Assembly: GCA_964016885.1 (NCBI GenBank)
Contig: OZ024751.1
Span: 13,454,001 to 13,518,000 of the forward strand
Source: Eledone cirrhosa
Lineage: Eukaryota
Reading direction: 5' to 3'
Length of the DNA: 64,000 nucleotides
Shown here in pieces: positions 56,597 through 57,889 of this stretch (within the stretch, counting starts at the first letter, position 1; every line of letters starts with the position of its first letter). Below the pieces are notes generated by a model. It worked only from the letters and a program-made list of their open reading frames with translations, searched no databases and was not told the origin of the DNA. The position numbers and the translations under genes are program-made.

Positions 56597-57037
56597 TATT
56601 ATAATTGAATAGAAAAGAAAAACGAACACGGATATATACATATAATAAGGGACCAGATTCGCTAAGGTGAAAAGAATACTAACTATAGACAATAGGGTTT
56701 GCCTGACTCAATTTAAGAATAAATCAAGAAAATAATTACTAACCGGAATTGTGGTAGCTACCAATCACCCAGACAGCTTTGGTAATGCTGTTTCGCAAAA
56801 TTAATTGTGAAGAGGAATACCGATACTTGCTCATCAGTGGGTGAAGAATTAGTATCCTCGTCACTTCTAAGTATATTAAAAAGCTGAATAGTGTGCGTAT
56901 ATATAACAACGCACATGGTATCTGAACTTAGCGTGTCTCACAAAGTCACACCACTAAAAAATATTGAGTTAGAACACATGTATCGATTTGAACACATATG
57001 TATATATCCGTTTTTCTTTTATATTCAATTATAATAT
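56597..57037 (-). mobile_element. IR-bounded PLE-type element carrying a hammerhead
   Basis: tattataattgaatagaaaagaaaaacg..ggatatatacatat (56597-56643) inverted at 56996-57037. Confidence 0.65.
56765..56844 (-). ncRNA. Canonical type I hammerhead ribozyme
   Basis: Minus strand: tcaccca-CTGATGA-gcaag..tttgc-GAAA-cagc-attaccaaa-gctg-TC-tgggtga. 7-bp stem I, G10.1-C11.1, 5-bp stem III, GUC cleavage triplet. Confidence 0.92.
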
Positions 57038-57115
57038 ACGGCTCGGAAAAATCTCTTTGCTAGAGCTATTTTATTGTAAGAGACTATTTTGAGTTTCTAA
57101 CTCAATATACACCTT

Positions 57116-57200
<85 letters not shown>

Positions 57201-57432
57201 TTAAGATGAAGCAATGTAAGATAAGTAATCAGAGATAAATCAGTTCAGAAAGCCGGTACAATGAGGATAAAAATCTGGAAATATTGTAATATAAAGGGTG
57301 ACAAACAGAACAAAAATCGTTTTTTACCCAATATATTTCATCATAATATTTCAAATGAGAAACGATAAAAGAATCGCTTTGTTCCAGCGGATCTTTTCTA
57401 TGTTTTGTATGGAGTGTGCATGTGTGGAACAG

Positions 57433-57889
57433 TCATAAAAGCCACTCTGCTCCATGTTGTTCCGTTATATTGTTCGTTGCTGGTTTCTGTGTGTTTATAA
57501 TTATGCCAACCTAATTTCTTAAATTCCCTACATTCCCATCCGTCGCCTCTATCGTGACTTCAATGTCTCGGTTGCGCCATTTATCAAGGTTTTTTTTTAA
57601 CAGAAGAAATTCTCGTTGTCACGTGTTCCATGACCCATATGTGCAACATCCGGCCAGTACTTCCATGACCCTGTAGACCACATACCTTCTCATGCACACT
57701 TCCCCGTTGTTGATAGGACAGTTAGGAAGTGTGAATATATCATTGTATGTAGGTCTGGGTTTGGGGAGTAATCTTCTCAAGGAGAGGATCATGAGTGTGA
57801 TAGCTCAGACCCCTCCCCCTACGGATAGTTTGTCGGATGGCAGCGGTCGTCCTGTCATTGAAATGCGGCAGTTCTATTCTAGATAACAT
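57433..57889 (-). pseudogene. Decayed GIY-YIG endonuclease domain of a Penelope-like element
   Basis: Hand translation across frameshifts: ELPHFNDRTTAAIRQTIRR..SLRRLL..TLPNCPINNGEVCMRRYVVYRV / GSTGRMLHIWVMEH..SSVKK / IEVTIEATDGNVGNLRN*VGIII..KP.TN, i.e. the CPxxxxxxC-VVY, GSTxRxLHxRxxEH and NLRxxE..P..N motifs. Confidence 0.78.

What the first reader, a model, noticed from the sequence alone, without database searches (positions are those of the whole stretch)
56597..57889. Textbook hammerhead downstream of an unannotated Penelope GIY-YIG relic on the same strand
Seen: a frameshifted GIY-YIG domain (57889-57433, not captured by the ORF track), then a (TA)n run, then an IR-bounded segment with a complete hammerhead: 7-bp stem I, stable non-palindromic stem III and GUC, with cleavage predicted between 56772 and 56771. 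Unlike the others it should cleave as a monomer, and it has a large loop II of about 30 nt available for tertiary contacts. Established: PLE pLTRs carry hammerheads 3' of the endonuclease. Inference: either one element or two adjacent PLE insertions.
Basis: partly seen in the sequence, partly recalled or inferred. Interest (0 to 1): 0.75.

Follow-up and report, generated by a model that had tools for sequence, protein, structure and literature searches.

The report
Retrozyme with long-helix hammerhead; relic unrelated
The hammerhead self-cutting-RNA motif is real but belongs to an abundant 516-base protein-free jumping repeat that sits beside an older, unrelated Penelope fragment; its large loop is predicted to pair with upstream bases in an unusually long helix kept by compensating changes, which likely braces the ribozyme.

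Summary
Both parts are real, but they are two insertions. The GIY-YIG relic (57950-57198) is an old Penelope-like family with its own 3' end and, probably, its own decayed minimal hammerhead. The hammerhead lies in a younger 516-nt non-coding head-to-tail unit ('U'; 433 exact cores in the genome). No U copy was found beside any of 57 relic-family loci, and only 1 of 119 U loci holds relic sequence, in the wrong order. The 'IR' is the overlap of two U arms inserted tail-out, so the (TA)40 abuts a U 3' end. U ends at two fixed sites, each followed by a GGCTC..GAGC hairpin motif shared with young Hydra-clade elements, its likely helpers. Loop II is not free: it is complementary to the 18 nt before stem I, with three compensatory changes on separate branches. 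This helix is either a long pseudoknot brace (favoured) or an off-switch. Cleavage and expression are untested. The scan has reported retrozymes of this kind, with the Hydra hairpin link, on other DNA of this genome.

The parts
57198..57950 (-). Old 5'-truncated, frameshifted Penelope-like relic (family R): linker, GIY-YIG endonuclease and its own 3' end; a separate insertion
57451..57783 (-). GIY-YIG domain of the relic, broken over at least two frames with stops
57341..57358 (-). Probable remnant of family R's own minimal hammerhead (U3-A8 type core); the stem II segment seen in other copies is missing here
   Evidence: U3-A8 variant in PMC4209133
57118..57197 (.). (TA)40 target run shared by the relic's 3' end and the 3' end of the inverted U arm
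56986..57123 (+). Inverted short arm of U (unit positions 377-516 plus the first bases of the next unit), 3' end facing the relic
   Evidence: L001 1897-2034
57040..57067 (+). GGCTC..GAGCT hairpin motif just past the first 3'-end site; candidate reverse-transcriptase start signal shared with Hydra elements
56961..56985 (.). Joint between the two 5'-truncated arms
56595..56960 (-). Main arm of U (unit positions 61-437) carrying the hammerhead
56847..56864 (-). Leader, 5' strand of the leader:loop II helix
56765..56844 (-). Type I hammerhead; predicted cut between 56772 and 56771
56807..56825 (-). Loop II strand of the leader:loop II helix (15 of 18 pairs in this copy)
56753..56762 (-). Small hairpin 3' of stem I with one compensatory pair
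   Evidence: helix 5
56575..56594 (.). (TA)n run at the 3' end of the main arm

Best explanation
The locus holds two unrelated insertions sharing one TA run: an old broken Penelope-like endonuclease fragment, and a younger copy of a 516-nt non-coding hammerhead repeat that is likely a retrozyme copied by Hydra-clade Penelope enzymes and whose hammerhead is predicted to be braced by a long leader:loop II pseudoknot. Shown: separate families, ages and ends; a closed head-to-tail unit; two fixed 3' ends followed by TA runs; tail-out inverted arms; the same hairpin motif 4-7 nt past both 3' ends in U and in two Hydra families; covarying complementarity between loop II and the leader. Inferred: a multimeric or circular U RNA is bound by a Hydra protein at these hairpins; the endonuclease cuts both strands of a (TA)n run; each strand primes a cDNA at one of the two sites; the two truncated cDNAs are joined head to head, which gives the window's 'IR'. 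Inferred for the ribozyme: the helix starts where stem I ends and 1-4 nt above stem II, the place of the usual tertiary contact, so it would hold stems I and II parallel (about 55%, against about 35% for an off-switch). This copy has three mismatches in the helix and may be weakened.
For: Non-linkage: 0 of 57 relic-family loci contain U; 1 of 119 U loci contains relic sequence (L002: the tail only, 1.2 kb downstream). Best relatives are 82-92% identical for U and 68-79% for the relic among the primary hits. Relic copies end at the same 3' point as the window's. Unit: 68 of 210 arms run over one unit, the longest 2.45 units; 164 of 210 end at U437 or U516 and 132 of these are followed by a TA run; 71 of 119 loci have a tail-out inverted pair. 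No PLE ORF is linked to U consistently in 120 loci. Helper: family N (713-aa ORF; RWR, DKT, CxCx5C, CxxC, CxH as in the Hydra definition of PMC8557442) has 150 of 150 scored matches at 95-100%, two 3' ends and the motif after both; 569 exact junctions, control 0. A second Hydra-like family has an even closer motif. A non-Hydra family P shows no such motif in 13 of 13 read-through ends. Two TA-free U-N junctions (L016, L024). Two-strand priming and two internal start sites are shown in vitro for a PLE in PMC11167929. Helix: 18 pairs, 85.3% of cells paired (shuffles 80.9, slid registers 32-60), 52 double-sided cells against 17; U-A/A-U 40:17, A-U/G-C 36:16, G-C/U-A 33:12, on three different branches; duplex -16.5 kcal/mol here against -6.9 shuffled, and 46 of 59 rows matched by at most 2 of 200 shuffles. 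The rival distal extension of stem I shows no covariation.
Against: No cleavage or expression data. 5' ends exactly at the cut are not enriched: 5 real cases among 6 hits against 3 at a control position. The compensatory changes are about three events, the tree is weakly resolved, and the number of pairs with a double change (5) equals the shuffle mean (5.2). RNAalifold did not return this helix and proposed a 5-bp hairpin inside the leader that also covaries. As a nested hairpin the helix is predicted more stable than the nested hammerhead (medians -26.3 against -21.2), and an 18-bp helix inside a closed loop with a 5-12 nt return linker is sterically demanding (inference). The start-signal hairpins are individually weak (z -2.4 to +0.35) and U has no other homology to N. 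Two fusions in 119 loci could be later deletions. Only 7 of 210 arms span two hammerhead positions, and those of L103 are mutated. Loci had 1.2-1.5 kb flanks and were a sample, so a rare coding parent of U is not excluded.
Confidence: 0.68

Rival explanations
1. Same element, but the leader:loop II helix is an off-switch. It forms during transcription before stems I and II can close, keeps the circle or the downstream unit uncut for reverse transcription, and is released when the leader folds into its own small hairpin or a protein binds.
For: The hairpin fold is at or near the minimum energy in many copies and below the nested hammerhead; the leader's own hairpin covaries; copies are made through intact hammerheads; PMC7229834 says animal retrozyme circles need some block, and that plant retrozymes and viroids use self-pairing.
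Against: The helix spares the core and, in most subfamilies, stems I and II; it stops 1-2 nt from stem I, whose last pair covaries. Pseudoknots between stems I and II are activating in PMC3088659.
Confidence: 0.3
2. U is the pLTR of a rare or extinct coding Penelope-like element, and the genomic copies are its truncated ends rather than an independent retrozyme.
For: Hammerhead, twin 3' ends, inversions and (TA)n targeting are all pLTR features; only a sample of loci was read.
Against: Upstream of the unit's start lies the unit's own end; 68 of 210 arms pass this junction and several subfamilies share it; no linked ORF in 120 loci.
Confidence: 0.1
3. One element: the hammerhead is the 3' pLTR ribozyme of the GIY-YIG relic.
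For: Same strand and the usual order, endonuclease then hammerhead (PMC4209133).
Against: 0 of 57 and 1 of 119 co-occurrence; different ages; an inverted U 3' end lies between them; family R has its own 3' end and probable own hammerhead.
Confidence: 0.02

Closest known systems
Metazoan non-LTR retrozymes (Cervera and de la Pena 2020, PMC7229834: passages, sections 14 and 17 read; Li, Clavereau, Pollet, bioRxiv 10.64898/2026.07.22.740005: parts 1-3 of 5 read)
   Same: Non-coding head-to-tail unit with a type I hammerhead, dispersed in many copies, proposed to depend on Penelope-like elements.
   Different: 516 nt (170-400 nt in the first paper, 51-972 in the second); mostly 0.7-1.7-unit arms in tail-out pairs rather than arrays; stable non-palindromic stem III; 26-28 nt loop II with an 18-bp partner; helper clade indicated by a shared end signal instead of pLTR homology.
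Pseudoknotted hammerheads (Perreault et al. 2011, PMC3088659: passages read)
   Same: Watson-Crick contact between the stem I and stem II regions, seen in all three hammerhead types.
   Different: The examples in the passages read are 4-6 bp; here up to 18 bp with a central bulge, in an animal mobile repeat, and the activating role is untested.
Hydra clade of Penelope-like elements (Craig et al. 2021, PMC8557442: passages, sections 11-12 read)
   Same: (TA)n targeting, hammerheads, tandem and inverted insertions; families N and X carry the Hydra protein motifs and share U's end signal.
   Different: U encodes no protein; no non-autonomous Hydra partner or end hairpin is mentioned in what I read.
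Poseidon of Anolis, internal initiation (Frangieh et al. 2024, PMC11167929: parts 1-2 of 4 read)
   Same: Two internal start sites defining a tail; both target strands cut and extended; AT-rich targets.
   Different: [quoted passage not shown]
Minimal pLTR hammerheads of metazoan PLEs (Cervera and de la Pena 2014, PMC4209133: parts 1-2 of 4 read)
   Same: Matches family R's own motif: U3-A8 core, extra base before stem II, minimal palindromic stem III.
   Different: Not the hammerhead of this finding, which has full stems.

Membership tests
Type I hammerhead ribozyme | Core CUGANGA, GAAA, NUH with stems I-III, stem I open | tested here: met
   34 of 65 family regions pass my descriptor, which misses short-loop-III variants
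Type I hammerhead ribozyme | Stems kept by compensatory change | tested here: inconclusive
   One clear double change in stem I (31:27), none in stem III; stem II and part of stem III were fixed by the search pattern
Type I hammerhead ribozyme | Rfam model match | tested here: not met
Type I hammerhead ribozyme | Self-cleavage at the predicted site | not testable with these tools
   Genomic proxy inconclusive, 5 against 3
Non-LTR retrozyme | Non-coding head-to-tail unit with a type I hammerhead | tested here: met
   Family level. The window copy itself is 0.73 unit plus an inverted 0.28 unit
Non-LTR retrozyme | Two consecutive units with complete hammerheads (Li et al. criterion for an active copy) | tested here: inconclusive
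   7 of 210 arms span two positions; L223 has two pattern-matching cores 519 nt apart, one with a changed stem I; L103 cores mutated
Non-LTR retrozyme | Expressed as linear and circular RNA | not testable with these tools
   No data obtained
EN+ Penelope-like element (relic, family R) | C-terminal GIY-YIG domain after an RT | tested here: met
   Family profile hits C-termini of 983 proteins at E<=0.001; of 12 scanned, 10 have RVT_1 and 9 GIY-YIG at E<=0.01; hhalign to family P 92%, E 6e-7
EN+ Penelope-like element (relic, family R) | This hammerhead lies in its pLTR | tested here: not met
EN+ Penelope-like element (relic, family R) | Clade (Poseidon, Neptune, Nematis) | not tested
Hydra clade (candidate helper N) | RWK-like, DKT, CxCX5C, CxxC and CxH motifs, C-terminal EN, (TA)n insertion | tested here: met
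   RWR 41, DKT 119, CNCRNRADC 568, CDLC 666, CKH 694; definition; TA ends. No RT tree was built
Pseudoknot-braced hammerhead | Helix between the stem I and stem II regions, coexisting with the active fold and needed for speed | tested here: inconclusive
   Pairing and covariation met; coexistence and effect untested

The most novel reading that the evidence does not exclude
An animal retrozyme whose hammerhead is governed by an 18-bp leader:loop II helix in exchange with a leader hairpin, that is a built-in RNA switch setting when the ribozyme cuts, and which is mobilised by Hydra-clade Penelope proteins through twin GGCTC..GAGC start hairpins. This would give a defined helper-passenger pair and a self-pairing control that published animal retrozymes were thought to lack.
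Probability: 0.3. Interest if true: 0.7.

Novelty: new variant of a known kind. Interest (0 to 1): 0.45.

Why it matters
Two open points on animal retrozymes become testable. First, which enzyme moves them: the shared twin hairpin names the Hydra clade and a minimal RNA signal. Second, how their hammerhead is tuned or kept quiet in a circle: the covarying long helix is a concrete element to mutate. The claimed link between this GIY-YIG relic and this hammerhead does not matter further; it is a by-product of several families targeting the same TA runs. My paper searches (hammerhead + Penelope; Penelope + octopus + microsatellite; hammerhead + pseudoknot + type I + loop II; hammerhead ribozyme + cephalopod; retrozyme + Neptune; Penelope + Hydra + non-autonomous + hammerhead) listed no paper whose title or abstract start describes this family, helix or signal; the library lacks most subscription journals and I opened no supplements.

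Tried and rejected
Rfam: no hammerhead match. Pfam on the window's own fragments: nothing. PDB with the relic profile: 0. Word-index search for longer relatives of the relic protein: 0 of 140 candidates; the profile search then found them. Metagenome pattern scan: 0. L229, two cores 2.7 kb apart, checked as a possible coding parent: a segmental duplication without ORF. Distal extension of stem I as the conserved partner of the leader: rejected, no covariation. Enrichment of 5' ends at the cut: inconclusive. General homology of U to families N, P and R: none beyond AT-rich noise. I first labelled N Neptune-like from recall; the published motifs place it in Hydra. Look-ups of earlier findings by place near the window and by sequence returned nothing. 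Rows dropped: alignment A3 used 59 of the 74 regions; 15 were left out by eye because the leader or 3' part was cut by a truncation junction, carried an indel in the leader, or was a segmental duplicate; the tree used 50 of these 59. The RTE-like label for 58322-57950 and the guess that the host is a cephalopod are from recall and were not tested.

Full report
Observation. Rfam does not see it, but a pattern of its core has 433 exact matches in the window's genome and the reversed control none. The GIY-YIG relic is real too. Its family profile hits 983 proteins at E<=0.001, many of them at the C-terminus of 800-900 aa proteins; of 12 scanned, 10 carry RVT_1 and 9 GIY-YIG. A profile built from 23 of these foreign proteins finds its only two domains in the six-frame window at 57783-57451 and 57688-57593.

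Two insertions, not one. The relic (57950-57198) belongs to an old family R whose best relatives are about 70% identical and which ends at the same 3' point in many copies. The hammerhead segment belongs to a younger family, best relatives 82-92% identical, 3250 first-look candidates of which 40 were scored. None of 57 distinct R loci contains it, and one of 119 distinct hammerhead loci contains R sequence: the tail only, 1.2 kb downstream. Family R seems to have its own minimal hammerhead after the endonuclease: of 26 anchors, 13 keep a TTGAnAA core and 5 keep both stems, matching the U3-A8 variant of PMC4209133. In the window the stem II part of that motif is missing (57358-57341). This last point was read from an alignment and not tested for covariation.

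What the hammerhead belongs to. The unit, U, is 516 nt and closed head to tail: upstream of its first base lies its own last base. Mapping 119 loci (50 ranked by BLAST and so biased to long copies, 69 sampled by pattern) gave 210 arms. 164 end at one of two sites about 80 nt apart (U437, U516), and 132 of those run into a TA tract, against 6 of the 46 other ends. 68 arms exceed one unit, the longest 2.45 units. 71 loci hold two arms joined at their truncated 5' ends with 3' ends pointing outward. The window is such a pair: U61-437 on the minus strand and U377-516 on the plus strand. The 'IR' is their overlap, and the (TA)40 next to the relic is the target of the inverted arm. No Penelope ORF is linked to U consistently in 120 loci. 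Two start sites and extension of both target strands are what PMC11167929 shows in vitro for a Penelope-like protein.

The likely helper. Earlier notes of this scan on other genomes (e1-9826524, e1-9895001) suggested looking just past the copy ends. Both U ends are followed after 4-7 nt by the same GGCTC..GAGC hairpin motif, across subfamilies. Family N, a very young coding element, also has two 3' ends, each followed by this motif; the second junction has 569 exact matches, control 0. A second family, X, has a still closer motif. N has the RWR, DKT, CxCx5C, CxxC and CxH motifs that PMC8557442 gives for the Hydra clade. Family P, which also ends in TA runs, lacks the motif in 13 of 13 read-through ends. 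Two of 119 loci show TA-free U-N junctions; note e1-9932276 argues that such a junction can be a later deletion, so I give them little weight. Against: the hairpins are individually weak and U has no other homology to N. Notes on other DNA of this genome reached the same Hydra link for similar-sized retrozymes; they are not independent support.

Loop II. In 59 aligned copies (59 of 74 regions; 15 dropped, see Tried and rejected) loop II is complementary to the 18 nt just 5' of stem I. 85.3% of cells pair, against 80.9% in shuffles and 32-60% in slid registers; 52 cells show double changes against 17. Three pairs switch cleanly: U-A/A-U 40:17, A-U/G-C 36:16, G-C/U-A 33:12. On a tree of flanking sequence (50 rows, weakly resolved) they fall on different branches, so they are about three events; the count of pairs with a double change does not exceed the shuffles. 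The last pair of stem I (31:27) and a small 3' hairpin (39:18) covary too, whereas the distal extension of stem I does not. The duplex is -16.5 kcal/mol in the window copy against -6.9 for shuffled loops, and 46 of 59 rows are matched by at most 2 of 200 shuffles. RNAalifold did not return this helix and proposed a covarying 5-bp hairpin inside the leader, a real competitor.

How it likely works. The helix leaves the core alone, begins 1-2 nt from stem I and 1-4 nt above stem II, and so sits where hammerheads make their tertiary contact; pseudoknots there are activating in PMC3088659, though at 4-6 bp in the passages read. I therefore favour a brace (about 55%). The rival is an off-switch (about 35%): as a nested hairpin the helix is predicted more stable than the nested hammerhead, 18 bp inside a closed loop is hard to build, and PMC7229834 notes that animal retrozyme circles need a block that is usually not self-pairing. 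The window copy keeps 15 of 18 pairs and its lowest-energy fold buries CUGAUG, so it may cut poorly. The genomic proxy for cleavage, 5' ends at the cut, was inconclusive: 5 against 3.

Verdict. The single-element reading is refuted. The hammerhead is part of a non-LTR retrozyme-like family, a new variant of a known kind by its long covarying helix and its Hydra-type end signals. Nothing here shows cleavage, expression or mobilisation. Supplements of the papers, which I did not open, may list Hydra or retrozyme sequences that include these families. Interest 0.45.

Noticed in passing
L125 (G000:C5:45637000-45645000), family N: Very young, abundant Hydra-clade element with a 713-aa ORF; its hammerhead-like motif has A in place of U4 (CAGAAGA) in all 15 copies printed.
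   Followed up: partly
L233 and L230-L232, L243, L244: Second Hydra-like family (about 43% identical to N) with a hammerhead-like motif and the twin GGCTC..GAGCT motif closest to U's.
   Followed up: partly
L234-L239: Three further non-coding repeat families carry the same hairpin motif; one is a 523-nt tandem unit.
   Followed up: no
L007, L128 (family P): A third TA-targeting Penelope-like family with its own hammerhead-like motif and no GGCTC..GAGC motif after its 3' end.
   Followed up: partly
L016 2040-2046 and L024 1957-1958: Two independent TA-free junctions between U and 5'-truncated N fall within about 13 nt of each other, just before the YRDD codons.
   Followed up: partly
window 57950-58322 (-): Looks like the 3' part of an RTE-type LINE, broken by stops, directly upstream of the relic (label recalled).
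   Followed up: no
window 16829(-), 16911(+), 17441(-), 36909(+), 45946(-): Other hammerhead-like descriptor hits of unrelated sequence.
   Followed up: no
window 55193-55762 (+): 189-aa frame resembling the C-terminal part of a non-LTR retrotransposon protein; no Pfam hit (resemblance recalled).
   Followed up: no
L032, L162, L178 and window 57341-57358: Several family-R copies lack the same stem II segment between two short direct repeats.
   Followed up: partly
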